Source: Antedon mediterranea (taxonomy: Eukaryota > Animalia > Echinodermata). From it: DNA of 64,000 nucleotides. Location of the stretch: the NCBI RefSeq assembly GCF_964355755.1, contig NC_092670.1, positions 17,346,795-17,410,794 on the forward strand. The letters run 5' to 3'. The first letter of the stretch is position 1, and each line of letters opens with the position of its first letter. The translations under genes and the position numbers were made by a program. The notes below the pieces were generated by a model. That model did not search any database. It was given only the letters and a program-made list of their open reading frames with translations, and was not told the DNA's origin. Positions 3,033-50,199 of this stretch are shown one piece after another.

Positions 3033-3295
3033 TAATTTACTAATTAAATATTTCTCTCATGCAGACAAAAGATGTATTTAAATTCATGAAATAACATAAT
3101 ATTACAATTCAAAATTACTATAAGCTATTCCATGTTTTAAAATATCTGTCATTTCCCATGCAAACAATGCCTTTGCAATACGATTGATTATTACAGGTAA
3201 TGTTGGTCTATTTTTAATTCCCAAATACAGCTGTTACTGTATAACCAAGTAGGTCTTTAACCATCACTGTTCATAATAGCCGATTTCTGACTATT

Positions 3296-14200: not shown

Positions 14201-15877
14201 ACTCTGTGTTTGGCCATTAGTAAAACCCTCGCTACTATGTGCAATTCATCGTAAGATTTATAGGGCATTTAAGCTTCTTTATATAAAGCTCTGTCTACAC
14301 TATCAAACTAGTAAGGTGTGATGTGCCCAAATATGGTAGTGACATGCCCAAATATGGTAGTGATATGACATCAGTCAGCATGTCCATAATTATATGGGCA
14401 CATCACATTATTTTGGTTTGAGCTTACAGATATAAATAATCTCTCAAAAGTGACTTTCTGTGAGACAATCAACCCATTTATTTCATTTTCATTTCATTTC
14501 ATTTATTTCGTCTCACATACTTATAACAAAAAATAACAAACAAAAGAGAGAGACAGGATTCCCAAAAGCGAACTAAATCAAACTATCAAGTGGGTCTCCA
14601 AAAATTTTTTGTGTACGGTATTGCAGCATGGATGTCCGCAAACAATCTCAGAAACATTTAGTAATGAAAAGAAATGTGTTAAGTACTCAAAATAGGAAGA
14701 AGGTTAAATCTGAAAGGCAGACAAAAGTTGTTTTGCATTAAAAAGTAGAACACACGCAATAGGAAATAATAACGGCAGCACATTTCCTAACATAAATATA
14801 TTAGTGTTTATCTACCACTTCTCTTTAAATTCCACACATGTCATTGTTAACTTGTGGTTCACTGAGCATAGATACTATCAAAATGAAGCTCGTTATCAGT
14901 TTGGTACTTGTCCGTGTCTACTCCTCTAACGGTTTCATTAAATGTAACGATGATTGCCTCGTTCAATCAATTTCTTTTCACCTTCAAATAAAGTGTGGAC
15001 AGAATCCATCTACAGTTTTGTAATGAAGACACTGTACAATGCCAATAGCAAGTCATTTCTGAATTCAATGGCAAAGCTTAATTGTAATCCATCTAATGAA
15101 TATGTTTGTTGGTTAATAAAAAGAGTAAAGATTAAGAATTTGGATTTCCACCAGGGCAGATTTACAGGGCTGACATTGTTTAAAAAAAAATTAGTGTATT
15201 AATAAAGTGTATTTGTATGTTTTGTCAGTCCTGGATGCCAGTCCTGATTTTCTCTACAAGATTTTCATGAGTAAATAAATATTAAAATAGGTTAATTTCA
15301 GCTAATTATTCACTATTTTTTAAGCCCATCTCCAAGACTGATGATATCCAAACATGTATGTGGAACATACTATAGATGCACTGATCACGATTAAGTGACA
15401 AGAGAAACCTAAATCCAAATTATGAGAGGAAAATGACAATTGAATTTGATTTGTAAACTAAAAGTTAGCATACCACAAGTTATTGATATAATATTAACAA
15501 ACCAGGTCTACAAATCTTACATTCAACTCGGCATCATTAATAAGAAGAATGACGAGATTATAATGTAATCAAAAGACTTATGAGATTCTATAGCAATTAT
15601 TACTGTCATGGATAAATTCATGTCTTGGTAAGAAAACACTAAGAAGGATTATTCTTTGTTGTTAATAGAAGATATACATTGCTGAGTATCATAATTGAAA
15701 CAAACAAGATTTACTTAACAACAGCACAATGTACTAGACAGCAACATGTTACTCGCCAACATGTTATTTAGCTGGCATAACTGTGTCTAGTGTATAGTGT
15801 TTGTGTGTTTGTAAAGCAGATTCGCAATGTCTCAATAACACTAAAGGCTTGATTGATTGATTTAGTTAGTTCGTACT

Positions 15878-16210: not shown

Positions 16211-18190
16211 TTGGGACTAATTTTCAGTAGATATGGTATTCTGCGGCTATCTGGGGAGTTATCAACAACTCTCTATTACTAAATTGAGTCGGAAGTCCAA
16301 TAAGCCTGAAATAAAATATCTGTAAAAATACAGTTGCACTAGCGTAACATGAATGATGAATTTAAATAGTAGTTGCACAATAGATATACTAGGCCCTACC
16401 CTGAAAACAAATATCTGTAATACAATGTATTACATAACCCTGACAGCAAAAATAGCTGTACAACATTCATAAACTATCAGAACAAACAGATTGAACCCAA
16501 TTATTATTATGTAAACATGCATGAAGCAAAATTGCAAGCATGGTCAGCAAAGCGATGATTTGAGCATGCTCAGTGCAAACCCCACAGGCCTACATCTAAT
16601 TTATGAAATGTATGCATCATACACAATTATTATATACAGTATAGAAACATGTATAAATCTTGTTTAAATGAGCCATTTTAATATTGTTGGTGAAATATTT
16701 ATTTCGCTTTAAAATATCTATAGTAGAGTTTAGAAATTTACTTTTTAATCAATTGGAAAACATTTGATAGCTGCAAAATCAGCAACCAGCAAGCAAGTAA
16801 GCATTATGGGCAATTAATTTTATTAAAAAATAAGTAAAATATAAAAATTGGTAGATTAAGATAGACCAAAAAAGTGTTTACAACAAGTATTACAGCCAGC
16901 AAACATTTTAAACTACTGTAGCAACCGTTATGAAAATTTACTATCTAGTGAATTTTGAGCCCTGTGATGTAACAATTGTACTGTCAAATCTGTCACCAAT
17001 ACTGCTCCTGTAAGAACACTAAACATTTTTTTCTGTGTATTGATCATGAAGCAGATGTATTTTAATACATTGATACATTTCAGGAAACTAAACGAAAACA
17101 TAAGTAGATGACAGACTGATAATAATAATTATATTTCATAAAAATAATTACGGTATTATTCATTATTATAAAAAAAAATTATTTAAAATATTACAATATT
17201 CATGTATAAGTTTTAAAAAAATTCAGAGTGTGATGATGTGTTAACTGGGTTAGGTTTGCATCAAACAAACAATAAAGTCGCAATTATTACCCAATTAATA
17301 ATCGAATAAAAAATGACATGTTGTTTGTTTTTCGGAGCTAAGATTAAAATATCAAATATATATATATATACTGTAGTATTAATATAAAACACAACACATG
17401 AATTAACTAAAAATTAATGAATTCATGGGCACATCACATGTTTTTGTCACATAGAGTTTGATAGTGTAGACAGAGCTTAACATTACAAAATTATGTAATG
17501 CTAAACTAAAAATAAAAGTTTATAAAAATCCATGTTTGTACTTGTGAGGACCAAAAACCAGTGCGATGTGCCCAAAAATGGTAGTGATATGACATCATTG
17601 TGTCCATATATGGGCACATCACAAAAACCAACCAATTAGGAAAATAAATTGGACAAAATGTAATTATTTTGTTGCCATAAAAAAAGTTGATTAATGAAAT
17701 TGTCTAAATTTCATAAACTTATCTACGAGCAAACACATACAAGATGAAATAAGACAGTTGCTATTTGCGTAAAAAACAAGAATCCAACAAAGATATTGTG
17801 TTGCGACTGTTTGCAGAAAACACTTAATTTACAAGAAACTTAACATTGTGTACACACACATACCGCGATAGGTTAATTAGCATATAAGTTTTATTTTTAA
17901 CTTGTTTGTTTGCCGACTTGTTTGCTGCCAAATGCTAGCACTCTTTAAACATGATATTGGTTATATTTGCCGCACTAAATAAATTATGAAAGCTTGCTAT
18001 AATTAATGACATGAGTTAATTTTCAAGGTGATCAGGTTGAAGCTAATATTTGTACATGAATGCTGATGAGACATATTTATAAGGTAAACATTAATTTCAG
18101 TGAGATTAATGTTCTTTAATGTTACAGAAGCAAGATTATGTGTTTTGACTTTTAATCTTTTCTTAGTCACAAACAATGTTCTGACATCTT

Positions 18191-19317: not shown

Positions 19318-22300
19318 TCATCTTCTTTCTTTGTGTTTATGTTTCTTGTGTTTTCTATCTAGGTCATGTCTGTCTCTGGATCGTGATCTACTTCTGTGTC
19401 TGCGACGATCCTTCTGTGGTTTAGTTCGATGCGGTGAAGCATTACGTTGTGGACTAGATTCGTTTGAAATTCTGCTGCTGCTTTGGCTCCCTTCACGTGA
19501 GGAATGTTTGGAAGAAATTCTAAATAAAAATATTAGAAAAAAAAAATGAAAAAGGTAAATTTATTTGCACGATTTGGTTAAATGCCCAACCAGCAAGAGT
19601 TTAGAATGTTCAATTCGCCTAGTGGAAAACAGGCTTTAGACATTTTTTCCAGACTTGATACTGAATGAAGAAATTCTATATTAAAAATATTTCAAATAAA
19701 TTAATTACAACACAGATAATACAGATATATTAATATCTCATCTATTTTTTTTCAATCTATTTTTTGCAATGCAAAAATGCAACCTATCAGAGGTCAGGAA
19801 TGTTTGATTCGCCTCGTGGAAAACATGATTTAGAAACTTTATCCAACACAACACCGTTCGGCGCATTCCTAAACCTTTCCATTATGATTTTTCTGCATTG
19901 TACACAACAAATATTATTTATCACCATACTTAAGTTACATGTAAACTCAATAGTGATTATATGTAAGGTAATTAAAATGACAAATTTAGAGCAATTCATG
20001 ATCAATCAATGTATCATTAAATCTTCCGACACATTATTCCAAAACTCAAAGTTAAGTAAACACCTAATAAAAACATAAAAATCAATGTTATTAACATAAG
20101 TATGAAATGTCAACACATGATTCCTTTCTAACGGATGACATCAATTCAATAACTCTGCAATGACCCACTTTCACATAGTTAGAAAGTAGTGCAATTATTG
20201 TTGCCTAACATCATCAGAAAAGCATTTATTACGTACAGTACAGTTGTCCAATAACTGTATAGTGCTCCACATTAAACTATCATTTCATTTATTCCACATT
20301 TATTTAGTCATCATAATTGCAATACAACTGATAACAATGATCCTGCATAAAAAAGCTGTAGCTTCGTTTTTTTTGTAGAACCCTTTTACATAAGAAAAAT
20401 ATAAGTAAATAGAACTTGGATAAAACAGTCATTTCCCATAAACAAAGGTGTTGTTAATCGGCATATAGTGATAAAAAGTATTTTTTGACCTGTTTTTTTA
20501 TACATATTTTGTTTCTTTAAAATAACCCGTTTATTATCACCATAACAGTTTAAGAAAGCTTACAGATAAGCAAACCAGCCCATAAAATCATTCTTTTTGT
20601 ATTGAAATCATTGTACACTATGAATATTAATTCAATGGAACGTTACAACAGACGTATGAACATGAAGATAATACACACAAACTAAGCAAAAATATCATTT
20701 GATTATCTCATTTTGAAATACATTACTTTCGTGTCACCACTACTGTATTCCATGCAGCAACATTTTCTTTACACAACACACTATTGGACTACACGGCTGT
20801 TGTGTCAACAAGTCATTCTGCAAATGCTCATGAGTCATCATATGTTTCTGAGCATGTGCAGAATAACTGAAATCTTTTATAAGAAATTAGATTAAATGAG
20901 CATACCTTTCCGTACTGGCCTTTCTCCTATCTTGTTCTCCATCATTATTCTCCTCTATTTTATTTCTAGTATTCAGTTCAAACAAATCCTCCATTTGTGA
21001 GTCTATAACCTCTCTTAAAATCTATACAAATAAATAAAGTAGCTCTTTAGTATCTGATGAGGAATTGTTTATGTGTACAATATAAATACAGAACTTTGTT
21101 ACTCTATTCATAGAGATATTATAGTTCACTATAATATCTCTATGCTCTATTTTATAATGTCTAGCTAGAAACTTTTTAATTAAATTTAAATTGCTCTCAA
21201 CATTTTGAGACTATATTAGTTTTGTTTCCATCAATTCACTTAAAATTGTTTTTAACTAGACAAATCTGTCATATTTTATTGTCTAAAATTTCAATTCCTA
21301 AAATCACTAATCTTGATCAATTTAAGGAGATCATTTCAAATTAATAAGCCACTGCTCTTTGTCAGACAGGCGTATTTAAGAAGAAAATCAGTACCAAGTA
21401 AGTAAGTATTATCTTGCATTGGTAGATAATTTATGTCAATTATGATGAGTTTAAATCCTTGAAAAGCAGTTTGGTCACACTCATACCAACCTCTGTCTGT
21501 GATTTCTTGTTTGACGTCACTCCTTTGGACTTGCCTTTGTAGGTCTGCCGACGCCTCTTGTAATCCCGCTGAGCTGCGAGGAGTTCTAAATACGTTGTCG
21601 GCTCTTTCTTTTCTTCTGTAGAAAGCAATAAATTTATATAAGTTTAGCTAATTGAGTCACAGGTACTATAAATAAATGCAATTCACCAGTAATACCGAGA
21701 CCTAATTGTTAATGTCAAAGGTCATCTACTTAGTGTTTGTTTACAAATCTGAATGGTTCTATAAAAATATCAATGATTTACCTTTCAACTGCAGTAGTGG
21801 GTCAGAGGTCAAATCAACACTTATTACATTGTCACTTCGCACTTTCTTAGCAACCTTCACAACATGGTCGTGGATGAGTGCTCTTTCATGCGGTGTCAGG
21901 TTGGTGACCTCTCGTTCTGCTGTCAAAGCAACTGGCTTTTGGGAATAAACACCTAAAAGAGGATAAAAACATTGATGTTTATTGCAAGAGTCTTAAGCTC
22001 TATGTGATAAACAAATGTGATGTGCCCATATATGGACACATTGACATCATATCACTACCATATTTGTGCACATCACACTTTTTTTGTCAAACTAGTTTAA
22101 TAGTGCAGATAGAGCTTTAGCAATATTGTGTTTCTTTCCATGTCTTTTTAATAAAAGTCAAATTTTCCAAATTTTCAATGACTCATTGTAAAGTGTCTTA
22201 AGCTCTGACTACACTATCAAACAAATGTGACAAACAAATGTGGTGTGCGCCCATATGGACATGTTGACATCATATCACTACTATATTTGAGCTAATCACA

Positions 22301-24804
22301 CTTTTTTGTCAAACTAGTTTGATAGTGTAGATAGATCTTTAGTAATATTATGTTTCTTTCCATTTCTTTTAAATGAAAGTCAAATTTTCCATGATTTTCC
22401 CAATGTTCAATGACCTGTGTTTAAACACAACATGTTTCTATTTCAGGACAGAAAGGACAGAGAGAGTAATATAGCAAAGTACAGACTGGAAACCAATAAC
22501 TTTTTAACACTACCATCACTTGATTCTTAGGTACTTGACATGAAACAAAGAAGTTCAACCCACAATCCCGGAGAGAACAAAGCATAATATGATACAACAC
22601 ACTCTTTATTGTCAAACAGATTACTACAGTACTATTAAGTTTGAGATACATTTTGTATTGTTCACTCAAGTGCACAAATAATATATTTTTAAAAAGTACA
22701 ATCAAAAGAACGAGGAAATCAAAGAAGGTAAAGATATATAACGTAATATCTTTATTGTTTTTTTTTATAAGAAATAAATTTCATCACAAATGTTTCATCT
22801 TATCAAAATAATCCAATTACATTTAAACATATTTCAACTGTGTTGATAGAAACGGTGTTTAAGAAAAGCAATTTTATCGAGTGGGAATCATTTTATAGAC
22901 ACACTTTGTCCATATGATGTTTGAAGACTTTACGTTATTTTTCATGGAAAATTTAAGGATACTTTATTATTTTTTCTTTAATAAAATAGAATAAAAACCC
23001 AAGACAAGCAGCTACACTTGATGGTTTACTGAAGTAAGTTCTATTTAGGATGCTCTACACAAACAAAGTTGTTCTGTTATAAAAACCCTAGAATCTTAAG
23101 ATTTGAACCCAGGACCCAAGGATCGGTAGTCAAGCACCAAGGAGATAAATGTTGCTCTTTCAAAAATAAAAAAGATGTCTAAAAAATCAATTATCAGTCA
23201 AGGATACCATTAAGGATATTAGATGGTGTATGATATAATCAGAATGTGAAGAAAACAAGACGAGAGTCAACACTGTAAAGAAAAAATACAATGAATATAT
23301 TATTAAATTAACATTTCAAAGAATGTAACGAACATTCACATTATTATTAGTAATGGCCGAAAAAATTACATTAAAAAAAATAATGTGTTGTTTCATTGCT
23401 GTGAGACAAATTGGTAACATTCTGTTGACTGTTAAAACAGTAGGAGTGCTAAAATAAATTAAATTTAAATGTATAATTCTGTATACACGTTTACCTGTTC
23501 CCTGTAACAGGATATCCGATTGTAGCTTTTCATCTGAAAAATAAACAGTAGTTAAAATTAAAGTCATATTGATGATGGTTGGGTAACACAGAGACAAGAG
23601 CAAAAACACGTGTCGAGTTGTGAAGAATTCAAACACAGGTAGCAATTATTTATGAGAAATTCCATATAAGAGGCCTTTTATATATAAATAGTATTAAGCC
23701 TGGTCTACACTAACAAACTTTATGTGACAAAAAATGTGATGTGCCCATATATGGACATGATGATGTCATATCACTACCATATTTGGGAATATAACTACCA
23801 TATTTGGGCACATCACATTTGTTTTGATAGTGTAGACAGAGCTTAAACATGTTTAGGAGTAAAGCAGGATAACTAAATGATTTGTAACCAAGACCTAGAA
23901 ATTGGTAGGCAAGACATATAATCAACAACCTACAGGTCCACTCACCTAATTTAACAGACACTACATTCTTCATTTTTGAATACAACCAATCTAAAGATGA
24001 CATTTGTTCCTGAAAAAAGAAAATTAGTAGTATGTGATATTTGTTTTAATTACTATTATTTAATTACAGTATCACGGGATAAACTGTATCCTATAAAGAG
24101 TAATATCACAATGTGGTATACAGCACAAGAACTGTAACTCAGCTACTGATTGTTAAGTTGTGATACCATTTCTATACTCAATACAACCATAGACATCTTT
24201 ACCATTTCCCTTTTATTGTGACAACTTTCCACCCTGGAACACTGAATGCTTTTAGACCAGTGACTTGTTCTATTAAGGACTTTCTTGTAAAAGTCATAAT
24301 AATTTCTGGAATAGATGTTTAGACATACCTGTTCTTCCAAAGTGTAGCCGTGTTGACTTAACTGACACTGCTTAGAATGACTTTCAAGAGTCTCCTCCGA
24401 TACAAAATGATCATTATTTACTGGACACTGCACCAATGGCTTGCAGTCCTATTATAAGGAATAAAAACATTTAATTACATCGGTCTTTTAAAATTAGGGG
24501 AGGATGAGGAGAACAACAAGACAGCGTTTTCCTGCCGGCCATTGTGCACTGTCCTTCCCATTTTTAGCTTGTTCCTGAATTTGTTATCGGAATAAAATGA
24601 AAATGAAATACTGGTACTGGTATTTTAATAATTTATTTATTTATTCATTATTATATTATGATGCTGACAAACCATGGTCTTGTCGTGTGTCCAGTTTAAC
24701 TTGACCATCAGATTATCAAGTTTCGCTTCATGTTCACCAATGAATTCACTCAAATCTGAAATTATGGTTTGTCTTTCATTATCGTCTGTTTGTTGAAATT
24801 CCAT
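19318..24804 (-). CDS. SNRNP48: U11/U12 snRNP 48 kDa protein, about 322 aa; coding exons 24673-24804, 24329-24448, 23946-24009, 23495-23533, 21782-21952, 21491-21615, 20906-21021, 19318-19519
   Basis: CHHC zinc finger CPVNNDHFVSEETLESHSKQC; conserved block ELLAAQRDYKRRRQTYK...TEILREVI; R/S/K/H-rich C-terminus. All introns GT-AG with consistent phases; TGA at 19318-19320. Confidence 0.92.
23200..23219 (-). promoter_or_regulatory. USSE-like element: tandem U12-type 5' splice-site motifs ATATCCTT-AATG-GTATCCTT in the SNRNP48 intron after coding exon 4
   Basis: Plus strand AAGGATAC (23200-23207) and AAGGATAT (23212-23219) are two perfect RTATCCTT motifs on the coding strand, 53 nt downstream of a strong U2-type acceptor (TATTTTTTCTTTACAG, AG at 23274-23273). 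Confidence 0.82.
23696..23844. mobile_element. MITE family B copy in SNRNP48 intron
   Basis: Full TIRs and internal repeats; source of part of spurious ORF 23710-24003. Confidence 0.85.
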
Positions 24805-42000: not shown

Positions 42001-45000
42001 AATATTTCATTCAAGGTTGGATGTAATTGTATGTTTATATCTTAAGCTTAATGTTGTGAGTAAATCATCTTGTATCTTTCTTATTTATGTTTACTATGAA
42101 AGAAATGAATATTATTTCTTCCTTTTCTCGATTATAGGCCTGTGTTGAAGAAGGTAAATCAGAAAACACCTCTATTGCTACCGAGCTGGTCAAACGATGG
42201 TGATCAAGTTGTGGAAGAAACCCCAATTAGTCAATTTAATGATGTAAGTTTCGATATTTATAATCAATTTAACATTTGTATCATAATTTACTAATACCCA
42301 AAGGCAAGTTTTTGGCTCCAACTGGTATTCAAAAGTGTAAGAAAATCTAAGAGTGATAGGTCAGTTATAGCTATTGTCAAAGGAAAAGATCAATTAGATC
42401 TATAAAATACAATACATTGGAATTGTTTGTAGTTGGATAACATACATTGTATATATTATATATAATTTGGTATTTTGCCTAATTGACCAAAATATATTTA
42501 TTGCTCTTATAGGTTGATCACAATACACAGAGTTTTGTAGAACCTGATCCCATCATTAGACCTTTTGGATCACCCTCACCGCATAAGATGCATGGAAGCT
42601 TCTTGCGAAAGGAAAGTGAAAAACTTTTAAATATAACATCTCCTAGACGTAAATCTCCAGCACGAGTTGCTACAGCATCACCATTTGCTACATCTGCTAC
42701 GAAGGGTATTAGGAGACGTCTTAATATTGAGGATGACCGCAAATTGGTAGGTATAATACTAGACATAGATTGACAACAATTTTTGTTTTTTTGAAAATCA
42801 GTTTTATCAAGTATTTACTAGACATCGTAATTCTAAAAACATATACAAAAAGTTTTTTACCCAGTATTTACCTGTTTTATGTAGTTCCCAAAGAGTCTCT
42901 AACTTTCGTATCTACTTTTAGAAATATGTAACAATTGCACCATCTCCGAAAAAGAAACTCGTCTTGACAGAACATCAGAAGGAAGTGATGAGAGAACGAG
43001 GTGTGGTACCCACAATGTACAATGACTTGGACCAATCACAGGACACTCAGCTGTTCTCAAATGTGTTTAGCCAAACTCAAGACAATACTAATTCAAGGTA
43101 TGATAATTTTAAGTTGATTCCAGTAGTATTCCTCAGTTTTGTTAGTGTAAAGTTGAATGGGATGATATGCTGGTGTCTTGCTGCCAGTATCATGTTTATT
43201 TGTTTGTTTGTTCATTTTTATACTGGGTGACCTCTTCAGTCAAAGACTGATCTCCCAGAGGACCCAGTTGGTGATCAGTGGCTGTGATGTACTAATACAC
43301 CGGGGTAACCCCCTACTCGTCTCGAAAGATGTACTAGGTTCTTTAAAGTGCACACGAGCTAGTTGTGTACACTGGACCTACGGTTTATAGTCCTTATCCG
43401 AGAAGACTCGTTCTACCACCAGAACCATGCTGTCCTAATGTAGACTATAATGGAAGAAAGTAGGCGCAAGGCAAATAATTTGGTGAATCAGAAGTGACTG
43501 CTCAGATGAGACAGTGTTTGTAGTTTCACCTAGTATTAAACTTAATTTTTGAATTTTTTTTACAAGTTTTAATAACAAAAATTAATTGTATCATCCAAAT
43601 ATCACGTTTAAAACCTTACCTTGTTTTTATAGTATGAAGGAAGCAATAACTGGAGCAATCGACTCGTGTATGGACTCGAACCAAGGAACCTCTAGCAAAG
43701 TAGATGATGACAACATACATCAACATTCTGATTGCCCATTACTAGAAGAAGCAGTTGGACCAGACTTCTTTTGGAAGAATAATGCAATGACAAACACGAA
43801 CCAGCAGGAAGAAAGTAGCCAAAAGAAAGTGAATTTTGATAATGCATTCGGTGAAAAGGGGTCTCTATCTAACAGAGAATCCAATACAGATAACAAAATG
43901 AATGAAAAGAACTCAATTGAGAAAGAAAAGAAAATTGAAAAATCAGAAGAAGTTATGACTGCCGTTGACTCTGAAATGATTGATTTAAGCTCTGAAATTG
44001 TAAATACTCCAGAAAAGAACAAAGCAAACAGTATTGAATTAAATGCAGGGTTGGTTGTGTCTATTGCTGAAACTCAGGACATTCTAATAAACACACAAGG
44101 CAACGAGAAAGTTGTGATTCAGTTGCCGTCGCATTTAACACCAGAGAAAAAAGTTGGTGAAAACATTGATGATTCAGCATTCATTAAAAAACTAAAGTCA
44201 ACACCAGTTTTGAAAATTTTACGAATAGCAGAAAAAGATTCGAAAACTTTCCAATCTCTTGACGTTACCAGTAGTCCAAACGTGTTTGGTAGCCAATCAG
44301 AACAGGGTTCAGGAAAAAAGCGATCATTACGAAAAACAAAGTCGATGGATACTGTCTGCCACGGTTCTCCTACCTTGCGGAGGTCAAAAAGTGTTGATGA
44401 CATCCCAGATGGCACTTGTGAACGATTAAGTTGTACTCAAGATGATTTGGCAAAACTAGCTGAGAAGTTTGAATTTGATGATATCAAGCCTTTGAATGAT
44501 GACTCTGATATTGAACAAAGTGAGATGAAGGATATACAGAATACTAATGGAGAAATTGCCAAGACTAAGAAGTACAAAAAGTCTGCCATTAAAAAAAATG
44601 ATACACCAGTAAAAAGAGTAACACCAGTAAAACAAAGTGCTAGAAAGAGAAATTCTAAATTTAATAAATTGGAGTCTATTGACGAGAATGCTGTGAAATC
44701 TTCTGACAAATCTGAAAGTAACGATCAAGTGAAACCAGCAGAGATTAGTTTGAATGAACCTTTAAAGGTTAAAGGAAAAAGAGGAAGGAAAAGAAAAATT
44801 AGTATTGATAACATTGAACCTGTTGAGAATATTGAAAAAGAAAAGGTTGATTTGGTTCAACCGGAGACACGGAAAAGAAGAAAAAAGACAGATTCTTATA
44901 CAAGCGACTCAAATATAAAAGAAACTGTTACAATTGATGCCTCAATTGTTGACAAAGCATCTTCAACCACTGATGATGTTGAAGCGGAAAACGTGTCCAT

Positions 45001-48000
45001 CAATTCTTGTGAAGACATGTTTGAAGGAATGGGTTGCACACAAGAGACTGCTGATCAGAATGCTGTTACGGCAGAAGAAGCAATTTCTAATCATCTACCT
45101 ACTACAACAAAAGTGATGAAAACGTATGGAAAAGAAAAGTTTCTAGAAATGAAGGCACCAGTTGTTAAAAATTATTTAGATGTCAATGTAGAAAAGCCTT
45201 CTGATTTTGAAAGTGAAGATGATCTAACCCTTGCAGAAATAAAACAATGTTATCTTGATGGTGATAGCCAAGAATCGGCCGATGAGGAAGAATCTGGGAA
45301 TAAAATAAAGGAGCTACATGTCATTTCTGATGCTCATTCTAGTAAAGAAACTGAAAATGAACCTCCCTTTTTTCAAGTGAAAGAAAATAAAAAACAACAC
45401 ACTTTAAAATCAATAAAGAAAAGGAGTCCAGAATCTATTTTCTCTAAGAAAGCTTTGAAATTAGCAATGAGATCTCCCGGCAAAAGAACACCAAAGAAAT
45501 CACCTATAAAACCAGCTAGGACATCTTCTGGAAGGATTGTGATGTTGCCACGGCGGTTAAGATCACAAACAGCTCCTGTTGCTGCTAGATTACGATCAAA
45601 ATCCGGCGAACCAACTCAAAGTCGCAAAATGTCACTGATCAAACGAAGATGTTCCACTCCAAAGAGTCTCACAAAATCAAAATCAGTCTTTGATGGCATC
45701 TCAAATGAGCCACTTCTCTCTCAGGAATATAAGATATTCAACATTGAGGAACAAAATAGTAAAGAAAATACTTTACCAGTAATCAGTGAGAGTCCTGAAA
45801 AACGTATAGAGTCTTTAAATGATGTGGAAACCAAAGATAGTCTATCGGCTATTGATCTTCCTAAAACCTTGGACTTGATTGACAGCACAATCCTCGATGA
45901 CAATATTCCTAGTAATTTAGGGGTTAACCCTGTTGATTTGTTAGATCATAAAGAGATTGAATCTTGCCCAGAGAATGCAGAAAATGAGAACAAAGAAAAT
46001 ATTGAGATCAAAATGGAGGAAGAGTGTGTAACTGAACCAGTAAAAGAAAAGACAATTGAAACTGTATTAAATGAACTGTTTGAAGAAAAAGAGTCTGTTG
46101 AACAGATGAAGTCTGATCCTATTGCCAACAAAGAAGAGTCTATTCAGGATAAAGATCTTTCCATCAATAGTGTCCTCATTGAAGACAATGTCACAGATGT
46201 TGAACAAGATGATATCAAAAGAATATTTGAAGAAAAAGATGAAACAGAAGATATCATAAACAGCAGTCAAAGTCCTTCACAATCATCTGAAGCTACATCA
46301 CGCATTGATGTCTTGAAACAAGCCCTTTCACAAATAGAATCTCCCAAAACATCAATTAGTACAAATTTCACCAAACTCATTCCAACAGCTCTTTCAACTT
46401 CTCCAGTCATTCCTGTAAAATTCTGCCAACAATATTCATCGCCAGAGTCCTCAATTCAGAAAGCAGATCTTCCAGAACATGCCATTCCTGGAGTTTTCTC
46501 ACCTAATGTGTCACCAAGTAGTGGTATCTTGAAGCGACAACCTGCATTAAGTGACTCACCTTCACCAAGGGTAAGAACTATTACTTTATATTTAATTTGC
46601 ATTTAAAATTGCAAAGTGCAAGTGAGAGAAAATACTAAACATAAAAGTTTTGATGATGCAGGACCCTTTTAAAGACACACCTAATGTCTATATTACAATG
46701 CTTTTCATTGGATAACAAAAGACCTTCCTATGTAGTGTACAATCATCGTCTGCATGTATTTCACCCACAAAGAGAGTAGAAGCTGTAAACTTTGTCTAGG
46801 TCAACTTAGGTCAATGTGTTGTAGCCAAGAAAGGAACTATGATGGGAGGTCAAATTATGCGGAATATGAACAGCTCCTATACAGCAAAAAGAATGTATCA
46901 AAGATTGAAAGACAGTCCAGAGAATAATTTGTTTCTCAATATTTTTTCACCAAATTCAGACAAGACGTGTAAGCTTTGCTGACCCAATAGAGCAGCTTGA
47001 TTCTGATGCCAAAGATGCACTGAGTGAAGGAGGGAAGTCTGTAAACAGGTGTCTTGAGATGAACCGACAACTAGCGACATCACCTCTGGTAACGACAACA
47101 CCATCAAAGGTTGTCAATGTTAACTCTAGAGTAAGTTGGTTTGTAGTTTAATTATTTAGAATCTGTAGAAAATTGGATTGGGCTTTTTTTTCGAAGGTTT
47201 GTATGGTGAATAAACACTTGTAAAGTTACGTTTGCGGTACACCTGTGTTCCAAACAAGAAATAGAGTATGTTTGAGAATGTCGTGACATTTTGGTTGTTA
47301 TGCTACAACCATCTTCTGGAGTTTTAAGGGTAGCGTGCACTGTACAGTATACTCATTGATTTAAGAACTCGTTTTTATTTTATTTCTTGTGTAGTTTATA
47401 ACTACTCCGTCAAGTTCAAGAAAAAACAGATTGAAAACCGTAAGCTGTGGAGCTAAGAGATTTAGTAAATCACCAAATGAAAGGAGAAGAAAGCTACGAG
47501 ACTACAGTCATGCATCTCCAAGGCTCATTAGAAAGGTGAGTAAAGGCTTGACCTTATCTTGACCTTAAAAACAGTTGCAATAAATTTGAGCTACATTCAG
47601 ACCATCAAAATGAAGACAGGAGCATAAAGTATTTATATTTTGCTAAATATTTTGTTTTGAACTTTCTTACACAGTAGCCATTTTTATTTTATTAGGGATT
47701 TCATGTAAATGGCTTACAGGTCAGTCAAGACTCTCCTCTAACTCAGGGCTCACCAGGTAGCGGATTTGACAGTGACCATGAGAAGGATGAATTTGACCCA
47801 CTGAAAGCTGTCTTCCCTCAATTGGTCAACTGTACAGCTCCTGTGGTCAAGATCTTACCGAAGTTGACATCGTCGATGTGGTAAGTATTGTATTATATGG
47901 GGAGATCCTCTTTGCGTAGAGCTTATTGGCAGTTGCAGAGAGCTCATGGCAGTTGCGGAGAGCTTATTGGTTGTTGTGGAGAGCCTATTGGTTGTTGTGG

Positions 48001-50199
48001 AGAGCCTATTGGTTGTTGTGGAGAGCCTATTGGTTGTTGTGGAGAGCCTATTGGTTGTTGTGGAGAGCCTATTGGTTGTTGTGGAGAGCCTATTGGTTGT
48101 TGTGGAGAACCTATTGGTTTTTTGTGGAGATCCTATTGGTTTTTTGTGGAGAGCCTATTGGTTGTTGTGGAGAGCCAATTGGTTGTTGTGGAGAGCCTAT
48201 TGGTTGTTGTGGAGAGCCTATTGGTTGTTATGGAGAGCCTATTGGTTGTTGTGGAGAGCCTATTGGTTGTTATGGAGAGCCTATTGGTTGTTGTGGAGAG
48301 CCTATTGGTTGTTGCGGAGAGCCTATTGGTTGTTGTGGAGAGCCTATTGGTTGTTATGGAGGGGCTATTATTTGCTGTTGCAGAGAGCTTATTGGTTGTT
48401 GCAATGAGTCCTTGTTATGGTGTATACATTATTATGTTTTTTTTTCTTTAGGTCTCGTGGATTAGGTCAGCTGATCAGAGCACGTAACATAATAACTGTA
48501 GGACACCTTTCTGCATTAACACCAACAGATGTAAGTTTTATAATTTTTTAAATAATTTCAATAACTATGATTACAACAATTTGTAGAATAATTTTATATG
48601 TATTTCTTGTTTTGATATTTCCTCCTTATTTCAATCTTGAAGGTTTTTAATATTTTACAATTGAAGAATTTTCATTTTTTTTATGTTCTTGATGAAATAA
48701 ATGACTATGAACTGTTCAACTATTGTAATTAGATCAATTTACATAAAGTGGTTCTTTAATAAAACAAAATTGATAGAAAATTACAAGTGATGTTTTAAAT
48801 TGTTGACAACTCATAACTTTAAATGTCAACGTTTTCTGCGAATTCTTATTGTGTTTTGGGACTAGTAAAGTATAATGTTATTAATTTCTCTTCTCAGCTT
48901 AAAACATTACCAATTCGATCTCCCAAAGTGAAAACCGTAAAAAATGCTCTAGCGACATTTCATCTGCAATTAGTAAGACAACAATTTTTATCACTTTACT
49001 TTAAAATAATTTTAAATGTGTGGAGATTAATCATTTATTTCTATAAATTGTCTAAATCTGATAAAATGTGTTTCTTAAAGTGTAGGTATTTACTGTAGGA
49101 ATTTCTTTATTCAAAATATTAAACTATTAAAATAAATTACCTTTAACACTATATAGCAGTTTATGTGTCAAGCCTCGTAAACACCTCACTTCACTTATTT
49201 AAATAATGTGTGGGAGTTAATTAAAGAATCAAGATGCGACTCTTTTGGGAATTCCCATTTATATATAACTAAAGAATCAAGATGCTACTCTTTTGGGAAT
49301 TCCCATTTGTATATAAGTGATTTTCCATGTGCTAATTAAACTACAGTAGATGCTTTTCCTTTCTGAATCCTGTAGCATTTAATTATTTTGAACACAGTGA
49401 ATGTATAGATTATCACCTATCAAACTAAATTGCAAATTACAATTACATAATATCATTAAAATATCAATGTAACACACCACATATCAGTTTACAAGAGTTA
49501 ATGAATTTGTGATAATTACCAAACTCATTGGTCTAAAAGCCACAATTTTTTGCAAAAAGTGGTAGCCGAATGGCACACTGAAACACACTCTGAAGTCCTG
49601 TTTCATGTTCTGCCTTCCACATGGTGGTGGGCTTGCGCATGAATGATGCACTTGGGTATGATTCACATGAGTCATCTTTTGTTATTATTTCTTGTCTGCC
49701 TATTATACTAATGATAATTGCTATTTTTTAAAATTATTTTAACATAATTGCACTACAGGTTGCTAAGCAAGAAAGAGATCAGAGTGAGAAGATTCCAACA
49801 AATGTTGAAAACCTACTGAAAAACACTGGAACAGCCATCTCTGAAATGAATCAATTATCGCAAACACTAAAGGAAGCCTCACCAGCTAAGGCTGCAGTCA
49901 CAGACAATGAAAAACCATCTACTTCCAGTAATCATGGCAACCAGAACACTCCAAATTCAACAGACACAAACGCACCCAATAGAGCTTCTTTAAAACGGAA
50001 ACTAGAAGATACAGCGCCGAAACAATCTCCAAAGAAATGTAAACTAATTGACAATTTAGAGGAATTAACGAGCGAGTTTGTCAAGGAAGATCTATCGCAA
50101 CTTTCAAGTGAACAAATTTTCAGAGCTCATCAACAAGTCAGCTCGTTGATGACGTCAATTGTGCAGGCGCTACAAAACAAATGCCAATCACCAAAGTGA
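33036..50199 (+). CDS. RIF1: Replication timing / telomere-associated protein RIF1, about 2476 aa; exons 33036-33166, 33684-33886, 36140-36243, 36607-36701, 36817-37099, 37387-37525, 37637-37788, 38019-38142, 38441-38608, 38784-38894, 39009-39166, 39332-39415, 39511-39578, 39928-40108, 40225-40329, 40445-40594, 40872-41096, 41213-41367, 41621-41869, 42138-42243, 42513-42746, 42922-43097, 43633-46570, 46960-47130, 47395-47535, 47696-47880, 48452-48530, 48898-48972, 49759-50199
   Basis: N-terminal HEAT-region motifs TRALWCIAKQ, LHRGGSLINSML, WKILIENFA, TNEVNQGDSLEHDF, FWNSTF, LTEHQKEV; PP1-docking GILKR and RRVSFADP; C-terminal WSRGLGQLIRARNI and LPIRSPK. All 28 introns GT-AG with matching phases (7431 nt). 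Confidence 0.95.
33167..33264 (+). repeat. 25-bp tandem repeat x4 containing the RIF1 5' splice site
   Basis: GTAAGTTACCTGGTGCATTATGGGA units starting at 33167, 33192, 33217 and 33242. Confidence 0.9.
33927..35998. mobile_element. Non-autonomous Tc1/mariner-superfamily (Tc2/pogo-like) element in a RIF1 intron
   Basis: TIR CCGTATATTTCGGTGTATAAGTCGCAC / GTGCGACTTATACACCGAAATATACG(A); TA on both flanks; subterminal GTGCGTCTTATACAC repeats; no transposase ORF. Confidence 0.85.
34093..35318. mobile_element. Nested DNA element with 12-bp TIR and 6-bp TSD
   Basis: CAGACCTTGATT...AATCAAGGTCTG flanked by CTAACG on both sides; subterminal AGGAG(C/A)GCC motifs at both ends. Confidence 0.7.
43195..43430 (-). 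mobile_element. Probable SINE fragment in a RIF1 intron
   Basis: GC-richer island preceded on + by a (TTTG)n tract, i.e. an (AAAC)n tail on the minus strand; family assignment is inference. Confidence 0.5.
43633..46570 (+). CDS. RIF1: RIF1 giant internal exon (2.9 kb) encoding the disordered region
   Basis: The 1006-aa ORF 43586-46606 trimmed to acceptor ttttatag (43632) and donor GTAAGA (46571); E/K/S-rich low complexity, ending in SPSSGILKR. Confidence 0.92.
47919..48400. repeat. 21-bp minisatellite (about 23 copies) in a RIF1 intron
   Basis: Unit GGAGAGCCTATTGGTTGTTGT; opens three stop-free plus-strand frames. Confidence 0.95.

What the first reader, a model, noticed from the sequence alone, without database searches (positions are those of the whole stretch)
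23200..23219. USSE: tandem U11-binding sites in SNRNP48, a minor-spliceosome autoregulatory switch
Seen: the coding strand reads ATATCCTT-AATG-GTATCCTT, two perfect U12-type 5' splice-site consensus sequences 4 nt apart, inside an ordinary GT-AG intron following coding exon 4. Known: the U11 snRNP-binding splicing enhancer (USSE) is a tandem U12 5'ss in SNRNP48 (intron 4 in mammals) and RNPC3/65K. It is not spliced itself but activates an upstream U2-type 3' splice site to make an unstable mRNA, and the 48K CHHC finger contacts the U11/5'ss duplex. Inference: this invertebrate keeps the feedback circuit at the equivalent position. The mechanism class is described, but this instance would not appear in a gene annotation.
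Basis: partly seen in the sequence, partly recalled or inferred. Interest (0 to 1): 0.85.

Follow-up and report, generated by a model that had tools for sequence, protein, structure and literature searches.

The report
Feather-star U11 splicing feedback switch
An intron of a feather-star gene for a minor-spliceosome protein carries two decoy splice-site motifs, and one RNA-like assembly shows splicing to a hidden acceptor just upstream of them that brings in an early stop, so this is likely a real but expected copy of a feedback switch already known from vertebrates.

Summary
Confirmed: a new member of a known kind. The minus strand holds ATATCCTT (23219-23212) and GTATCCTT (23207-23200), 4 nt apart; 0 of 300 window shuffles gave such a pair. 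They lie in the 1542-nt GT-AG intron 4 of SNRNP48 (U11-48K); my 8-exon model equals the Antedon mediterranea protein. The predicted junction exists: one contig of an RNA-like run joins exon 4 (23495) to 23272 and reads through both motifs; the three DNA-like runs laid beside it lack the joint (30 letters on the short side, one run). The extended exon stops translation at codon 147. A strict tandem sits in the same intron in 3 of 38 related loci (2 of 7 organisms with that DNA held, plus one transcript showing the same extended exon), 61-65 nt from acceptor to second motif in three non-fish cases. U11 binding, feedback and decay are inferred from vertebrate work, not shown here. No strong mini-exon donor and no conserved spacer island were seen. 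The scan noted this element before in a sea urchin and an annelid. Interest 0.3.

The parts
23212..23219 (-). First (proximal) U12-type 5' splice-site 8-mer, ATATCCTT, 53 nt after the alternative acceptor
23200..23207 (-). Second (distal) U12-type 5' splice-site 8-mer, GTATCCTT, 65 nt after the alternative acceptor
23273..23295 (-). Alternative U2-type acceptor: pyrimidine tract (16 of 20 Y) and CAG; the only pyrimidine-rich YAG of intron 4 upstream of the tandem
   Evidence: used in run X1 (joint 23272/23495)
22337..23272 (-). Extended alternative exon (E5E-like): one contig runs 23272-22917 through all three motifs; two further contigs cover 22877-22642 and 22637-22337; arrival at exon 5 is not shown
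23187..23189 (-). Premature TGA in the extended exon (146-aa product in the window allele; 130 aa with the 4-nt insertion of run X1), 1405 nt before the exon 5/6 junction if the exon reaches exon 5
22955..22962 (-). Third RTATCCTT 8-mer, 310 nt after the acceptor, directly behind an AATAAA; role unknown, no third copy in L008, L011, L036
21953..23494 (-). Intron 4, 1542 nt, GT-AG, phase 1, no U12-type branch site at its acceptor
24673..24804 (-). SNRNP48 coding exon 1
   Evidence: model identical to P0001
24329..24448 (-). Exon 2, CHHC zinc finger (PF05253; C52 H58 H68 C72)
23946..24009 (-). Exon 3
   Evidence: loose end at 23535 reads exon 3
23495..23533 (-). Exon 4 (39 nt); its donor is joined either to exon 5 or to 23272
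21782..21952 (-). Exon 5; starts at about residue 137 of human U11-48K
21491..21615 (-). Exon 6 (RDYKRRRQ motif; ends at human residue 239)
20906..21021 (-). Exon 7
   Evidence: fits the 241-nt gap in X1 record 4
19318..19519 (-). Exon 8, coding part to the stop

Best explanation
Intron 4 of the feather-star SNRNP48 gene holds two U12-type 5' splice-site motifs 53 and 65 nt behind a hidden major-type acceptor that is used in one RNA-like assembly, and U11 snRNP likely binds the pair without splicing there, likely activates that acceptor, and so yields a stop-bearing extended exon that would be degraded or held in the nucleus, a predicted negative feedback on U11-48K. Shown: gene identity, motif pair, intron position, the exon 4 to 23272 junction, read-through of the motifs, the early stop, the same pair in the same intron of other animals. 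Inferred from vertebrate work: U11 base-pairing, exon-definition contact with U2AF, dependence on 48K level, decay or retention. The visible product is the extended-exon form (human E5E), not a mini-exon: no donor between acceptor and motifs matches U1 at more than 3 of 9 positions, against 5-8 of 9 for the seven real donors.
For: Tandem beyond chance. Gene is SNRNP48: Pfam zf-U11-48K E 9e-08; human U11-48K best PDB hit for exons 2, 5, 6; model identical to XP_071961594.1. Joint 23272/23495, skip 222, GT..AG on the minus strand, depth 9.61 in X1, absent from X2, X4, X5; X1 has zero depth at 23311-23448 and 23541-23695 but covers the intron behind the acceptor; productive contig exon 4-5-6-7-8 at depth 24. 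Strict tandem on the sense strand in 3 of 38 related loci, 0 of 38 antisense, none in 60 shuffles of the set, each in the phase-1 intron before the exon 5 equivalent. L002/L008, 100% identical, differ by an 895-nt insert that begins without GT after exon 4, holds the tandem, has an early stop and ends in a pyrimidine tract and TAG: an extended exon in a second organism. Acceptor to second motif 65, 61, 63 nt in window, L036, L008. Mechanism as described in PMC5473595, PMC8329584, PMC3584512 (passages).
Against: The junction rests on one contig of one run; 30 letters lie on the exon 4 side (4 fit both sides), one short of the tool's 31-letter rule for a bridge; the run is RNA by guess; contigs give no strand or level. 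The tandem is missing in 5 of 7 organisms whose DNA between the exon 3/4 and exon 5 equivalents is held (bird-like L009, L016, coral-like L024 and L032, tunicate-like L026 group) and in both sponge-like loci L034, L037. The spacer is not conserved in sequence and varies within the species (53 to 57 nt in X1). The fish-like locus has 79/94 nt, not about 63. No G-runs lie in the spacer. No U11 snRNA gene, no perturbation and no decay data were available.
Confidence: 0.85

Rival explanations
1. The acceptor at 23272 is an ordinary cryptic or intermediate 3' splice site used independently of U11, and the tandem is a vestige or accident without function.
For: It is a strong acceptor on its own (16 of 20 pyrimidines, as good as exon 5's). 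Most related introns lack the tandem. The spacer is polymorphic. No functional test exists here.
Against: The pair is improbable by chance and recurs in the same intron of three other organisms with no antisense cases; two of them keep 61-63 nt to the second motif; L008 shows the same extended exon. The joined exon 4/23272 boundary does not rebuild a donor (2 of 9 U1 match at the next GT), which argues against recursive splicing.
Confidence: 0.07
2. The switch is U11-driven, but its output is a stable truncated message, ended by intronic polyadenylation (AATAAA at 22968, 22756, 22610), that makes a 130-146-aa protein with the zinc finger but without the C-terminal helix.
For: The alternative contig has depth 9.6 against 24 for the productive one (a poor measure of level), high for an unstable RNA. 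Its end at 22917 lies about 45 nt behind an AATAAA. A join of the extended exon to exon 5 was not seen in X1.
Against: No loose end or poly(A) is listed at 22917, and RNA-like cover resumes at 22877 and runs to 22337. L008 reaches exon 5. The product differs between alleles (146 versus 130 aa), unlike a selected protein. The hamster E5E form is nuclear-retained (PMC5473595, S8 legend), which would also explain a high share.
Confidence: 0.05
3. One of the three motifs is a real U12-type donor, for example of an alternative minor intron.
For: All three match the 8-mer; motif 2 also reads as a U12 branch-site-like TCCTTGAC with an AG 17-18 nt later (23179).
Against: No acceptor of exons 5-8 has a U12 branch site within 45 nt (best 2-3 mismatches); the productive contig joins exon 4 straight to exon 5; the alternative contig reads through all three motifs without a branch; a 41-nt AT-AG intron is a disfavoured combination (PMC3584512). 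Contigs drop rare forms, so rare use is not excluded.
Confidence: 0.03

Closest known systems
USSE of vertebrate SNRNP48 / U11-48K (Verbeeren et al. 2010; Turunen et al. 2013; Niemela et al. 2015: none held; known here through passages of PMC5473595, PMC8329584, PMC3584512, PMC6865273)
   Same: Same gene, tandem U12-type 5'ss in non-coding sequence, upstream U2-type acceptor that is used, motifs read through, stop-bearing product, extended-exon (E5E) isoform. The fish-like locus L011 fetched here has the pair in the same phase-1 intron.
   Different: No credible U1 donor for a poison mini-exon (L011 has CAG, 8 nt, GTGAGT, read by eye); no G-runs in the spacer; spacer not ultraconserved as far as seen; 4-nt gap between motifs (7 in L011 and L036, 20 in L008); a third motif 310 nt after the acceptor.
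USSE of RNPC3 / U11/U12-65K (PMC5473595)
   Same: Tandem motif stays inside the alternative exon; outcome likely nuclear retention.
   Different: Different gene; element in the 3' UTR region, cross-regulation rather than autoregulation. The crinoid RNPC3 gene could not be examined (no genome held).
U1-70K / U1C cross-regulation in the major spliceosome (cited as analogy in PMC5473595)
   Same: An snRNP controls one of its own proteins through unproductive splicing triggered at decoy 5' splice sites.
   Different: Uses U1 and U2-type donors, not U11.

Membership tests
USSE (SNRNP48 type) | Host gene encodes U11-48K (SNRNP48) or U11/U12-65K | tested here: met
USSE (SNRNP48 type) | Tandem repeat of U12-type 5' splice-site consensus in non-coding sequence, sense strand | tested here: met
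   8-mer match, ninth base not T
USSE (SNRNP48 type) | Position in the intron equivalent to vertebrate intron 4 | tested here: met
Phase-1 intron before the exon that starts at human residue about 137; same intron holds the pair in fish-like L011.
USSE (SNRNP48 type) | An upstream U2-type 3' splice site is used | tested here: met
   Joint 23272/23495 in X1, not in X2, X4, X5; one contig, 30 letters on the short side
USSE (SNRNP48 type) | The motifs are not used as splice donors | tested here: inconclusive
   Read through in X1, no U12 branch site downstream; contigs cannot exclude rare use
USSE (SNRNP48 type) | The alternative product is unproductive (premature stop; mini-exon or E5E) | tested here: met
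   TGA at 23189-23187; extended-exon form; mini-exon form not seen
USSE (SNRNP48 type) | Constrained distance between acceptor and element | tested here: inconclusive
   65, 61, 63 nt to the second motif in window, L036, L008; 94 in L011; 69 in the X1 allele. A published optimum near 63 nt is recalled from Niemela 2015, not checked.
USSE (SNRNP48 type) | High sequence conservation of the stretch from acceptor to element | tested here: inconclusive
   Not alignable across four distant species; indel and SNP within the species; no close relative's DNA available, so this is not a fair test
USSE (SNRNP48 type) | U11 snRNP binds the motifs and acceptor use depends on that binding | not testable with these tools
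   Needs minigene mutation, compensatory U11 or a blocking oligo
USSE (SNRNP48 type) | Alternative RNA is degraded by NMD or retained in the nucleus, and responds to 48K level | not testable with these tools
   No perturbation or fractionation data
U12-type intron | U12 donor paired with a U12 branch site 11-13 nt before the acceptor | tested here: not met
   distance rule from PMC3584512

The most novel reading that the evidence does not exclude
The feather star runs a stripped-down USSE: U11 alone opens the hidden acceptor with no U1 donor and no mini-exon, so the only output is a long extended exon, and the geometry that selection keeps across distant invertebrates is the 61-65 nt from acceptor to the distal motif, while the proximal motif (35-53 nt) and the spacer sequence drift freely and whole lineages (coral-, tunicate-, sponge- and bird-like loci here) lose the 48K element.
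Probability: 0.35. Interest if true: 0.45.

Novelty: new member of a known kind. Interest (0 to 1): 0.3.

Why it matters
The element is known and described as ancient and present in plants and animals (PMC3584512), so a crinoid copy is expected. What this case adds is sequence-level evidence that the hidden acceptor is really used in an echinoderm, a second invertebrate-like transcript with the same extended exon, and a small comparative set that points to the distal motif as the distance-setting one and to patchy loss. That makes the geometry rule and the U1-independent output directly testable with natural variants (53/65 and 57/69 nt alleles in one species). It does not open a new kind of system.

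Tried and rejected
No genome was held, so U11 snRNA, RNPC3 and true U12 introns of this animal could not be searched; Rfam found nothing in the window. No run on record as RNA was listed and no raw reads were offered, so levels, strand, RNA ends and rare isoforms could not be read. The first lay was swamped by a repeat at about 22030-22340 and 23700-23850; the second used 22345-23695, so it could not show a join of the extended exon to exon 5. A one-base poison exon (T at 23272, next GT as donor), suggested by the annelid note, would give a stop at codon 141, but its donor matches U1 at 2 of 9 and contigs would hide such a bubble: neither supported nor excluded. Recursive splicing at 23272 rejected (no rebuilt donor). 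No stable RNA structure around the element (z 0.53). The fourth RTATCCTT of the window (44535) is antisense inside a long coding exon of another gene. A four-species DNA alignment did not even register the motifs. My first exon 3 boundary was wrong; their alternative-exon translations are void and were redone. My pyrimidine filter missed the fish-like acceptor, which is therefore read by eye. A search to place L036 gave only unnamed proteins. The three primary papers were not held; their species lists and supplements may already include echinoderms. Paper searches listed no paper on an echinoderm USSE. Of 38 loci, those outside the nine genomic cases and L002/L008 were judged spliced transcripts or too short from the tblastn layout and were not inspected one by one.

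Full report
Observation. The minus strand reads ATATCCTT-AATG-GTATCCTT at 23219-23200. Single RTATCCTT 8-mers are no more common than chance in the window (4 seen, mean 5.53 in shuffles). The pair is: it is the only one within 20 nt on either strand; 0 of 300 window shuffles, 1 of 3000 shuffles of the pre-mRNA and 0 of 10000 shuffles of intron 4 gave one. With the looser RTATCYT, 107 of 300 window shuffles do, so the significance rests on the strict match. A third 8-mer lies in the same intron at 22962; one such site appears in about 6 of 100 intron shuffles (641 in 10000), so it may be chance.

The gene. Eight exons on the minus strand, all GT-AG, give a 322-aa frame identical to P0001, annotated as U11/U12 snRNP 48 kDa protein-like of the feather star Antedon mediterranea (XP_071961594.1). 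Exon 2 carries Pfam zf-U11-48K (E 9e-08) with C52, H58, H68, C72 invariant or nearly so in 42 homologues. Human U11-48K is the best PDB match for exons 2, 5 and 6 (E 0.002, 0.04, 1.7e-06); exon 2 ends at human residue 90, exon 5 starts near 137, exon 6 ends at 239. The tandem lies in intron 4 (23494-21953, 1542 nt, phase 1).

The hidden acceptor is used. Intron 4 has one pyrimidine-rich YAG upstream of the tandem, ending at 23273. Five runs hold the stretch; none is on record as RNA, but X1 has spliced contigs: a 677-nt record covers exons 5 and 8 with a 241-nt gap that equals exons 6 plus 7, and its loose ends at exon 4 read exon 3 and exon 5. In X1 a 390-nt contig joins 23495 to 23272, skipping 222 nt with GT..AG ends on the minus strand, at depth 9.61; X2, X4 and X5 (one sample, unspliced) do not show it. 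X1 has no depth at 23311-23448 or 23541-23695, but covers 23272-22917, 22877-22642 and 22637-22337. The productive contig (depth 24) has the same overhang, which is what a fork in a 31-letter graph would give (inference). Depths are no measure of isoform share.

The product. The contig reads through both motifs and the third. The frame stops at TGA 23189-23187 after 146 aa; X1 carries a 4-nt insertion in the spacer, which moves the stop to 130 aa and the spacing to 57/69 nt. No donor between acceptor and first motif matches U1 at more than 3 of 9 positions, against 5-8 for the seven real donors (my own simple count). So the visible form is an extended exon, like the E5E isoform that is nuclear-retained in CHO cells (PMC5473595, passage and S8 legend), not the mini-exon that goes to NMD. 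Whether it reaches exon 5 here is not shown; rare mini-exon forms would be hidden in contigs.

Related loci. One scan of metagenome contigs with an alignment of 29 of the 154 proteins then in hand (those nearest the RDYKRRRQ motif) gave 38 loci, 25 clusters at 95% identity. A strict tandem (gap up to 25 nt) lies on the sense strand in 3 of 38, on the antisense strand in 0 of 38, and in none of 60 shuffles of the set. All three are in the phase-1 intron before the exon 5 equivalent. L011 (best hit a fish protein) has CAG, 8 nt, GTGAGT and then the pair at 79/94 nt. L036 (no named relative) has a pyrimidine-rich CAG, a possible GTAAGA donor 11 nt on, and the pair at 46/61 nt. L002 and L008 (best hit a jellyfish protein at 40-50%) are identical except for an 895-nt insert in L008 that follows exon 4, does not begin with GT, holds the pair at 35/63 nt, stops the frame early and ends in a pyrimidine tract and TAG before exon 5: by inference an extended exon from an alternative acceptor. 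Against: the pair is absent in 5 of 7 organisms with the relevant DNA held (L009 bird-like, L016, L024 and L032 coral-like, L026 group tunicate-like; the last two have somewhat different exon boundaries) and in both sponge-like loci L034 and L037. Taxon labels are best-hit guesses. The spacers do not align.

Mechanism. Best reading (0.85): a USSE. Shown are the gene, the pair, the position, use of the acceptor, read-through, the stop and recurrence in other animals. Inferred from vertebrate work (PMC5473595, PMC8329584, PMC3584512, PMC6865273, PMC8034651: passages only) are U11 binding, activation of the acceptor by exon-definition contacts, and loss of the RNA by decay or retention, closing a loop on 48K level. 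Which part of 48K touches the site is not settled by what I read: the review names the zinc finger, the apo cryo-EM preprint puts the finger on U11 stem-loop 4; later substrate-bound structures are listed but were not read. Rivals: a U11-independent cryptic acceptor (0.07), a stable truncated output (0.05), a true U12 donor (0.03).

Known and new. The USSE is published for SNRNP48 and RNPC3, described as conserved in plants and animals, best in vertebrates, absent in Diptera (PMC3584512), with a distance under selection (PMC8329584). The primary papers were not held, so I could not check their species lists, supplements or distance figures; an optimum near 63 nt is recalled only. Searches listed no paper on an echinoderm case. 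Earlier notes of this scan report the element in a sea urchin and in the annelid Owenia (AI notes, not checked). PMC11874965 and PMC12179342 (passages) added nothing specific; for PMC5473595 the supplement list was seen, no file read.

Verdict. New member of a known kind; interest 0.3. The boldest open reading, a U1-independent extended-exon-only switch whose geometry is set by the distal motif, has probability 0.35 and would merit 0.45.

Noticed in passing
window 22955-22968 (minus): A third perfect RTATCCTT directly behind an AATAAA, 310 nt after the alternative acceptor; read through in X1; no third copy in L008, L011 or L036.
   Followed up: partly
window 23197-23204 and 23179 (minus): The second motif also reads as a U12 branch-site-like TCCTTGAC with an AG 17-18 nt later; not kept in L008, L011, L036, so probably a by-product of the shared TCCTT core.
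   Followed up: partly
window 23242-23248: Spacer polymorphisms: a 4-nt CA-repeat insertion in run X1 and a SNP in X4; none listed within the two motifs in four runs from two samples (too few to test selection).
   Followed up: partly
window 22415-22437 (minus): A pyrimidine-rich TAG at 22438 and a CAG/GTCATT donor at 22414 frame a possible 23-nt cassette in intron 4; no joint seen in X1.
   Followed up: no
window about 22030-22340 and 23700-23850: Copies of a very abundant dispersed repeat (depth in the hundreds of thousands) in introns 3 and 4, with similar copies near 17460-17640 and 14290-14420.
   Followed up: no
L002 / L008: Two identical transcript-like contigs of another animal show the productive and the extended-exon SNRNP48 forms; the two motifs there are 20 nt apart, the widest gap seen.
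   Followed up: yes
L036:733-1096: A 364-nt intron 4 with acceptor at 891, a possible 11-nt mini-exon (GTAAGA donor) and the tandem at 938/953, in an animal without a named close relative.
   Followed up: partly
L009:689-3324 and L009:379: The bird-like locus has no strict motif in its 2.6-kb intron 4, only a single ATATCCTT in intron 3 and a degenerate pair at 3130/3164.
   Followed up: partly
L015:1053: A single GTATCCTT just behind the apparent stop codon of a SNRNP48-like transcript, near the contig end.
   Followed up: no
window 43586-46606 (+): A 1006-codon open frame, low in complexity, part of a large exon of another gene; no Pfam match.
   Followed up: partly
window about 47870-48460 (+): A tandem repeat of about 21 nt that keeps all three frames open for about 180 codons.
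   Followed up: no
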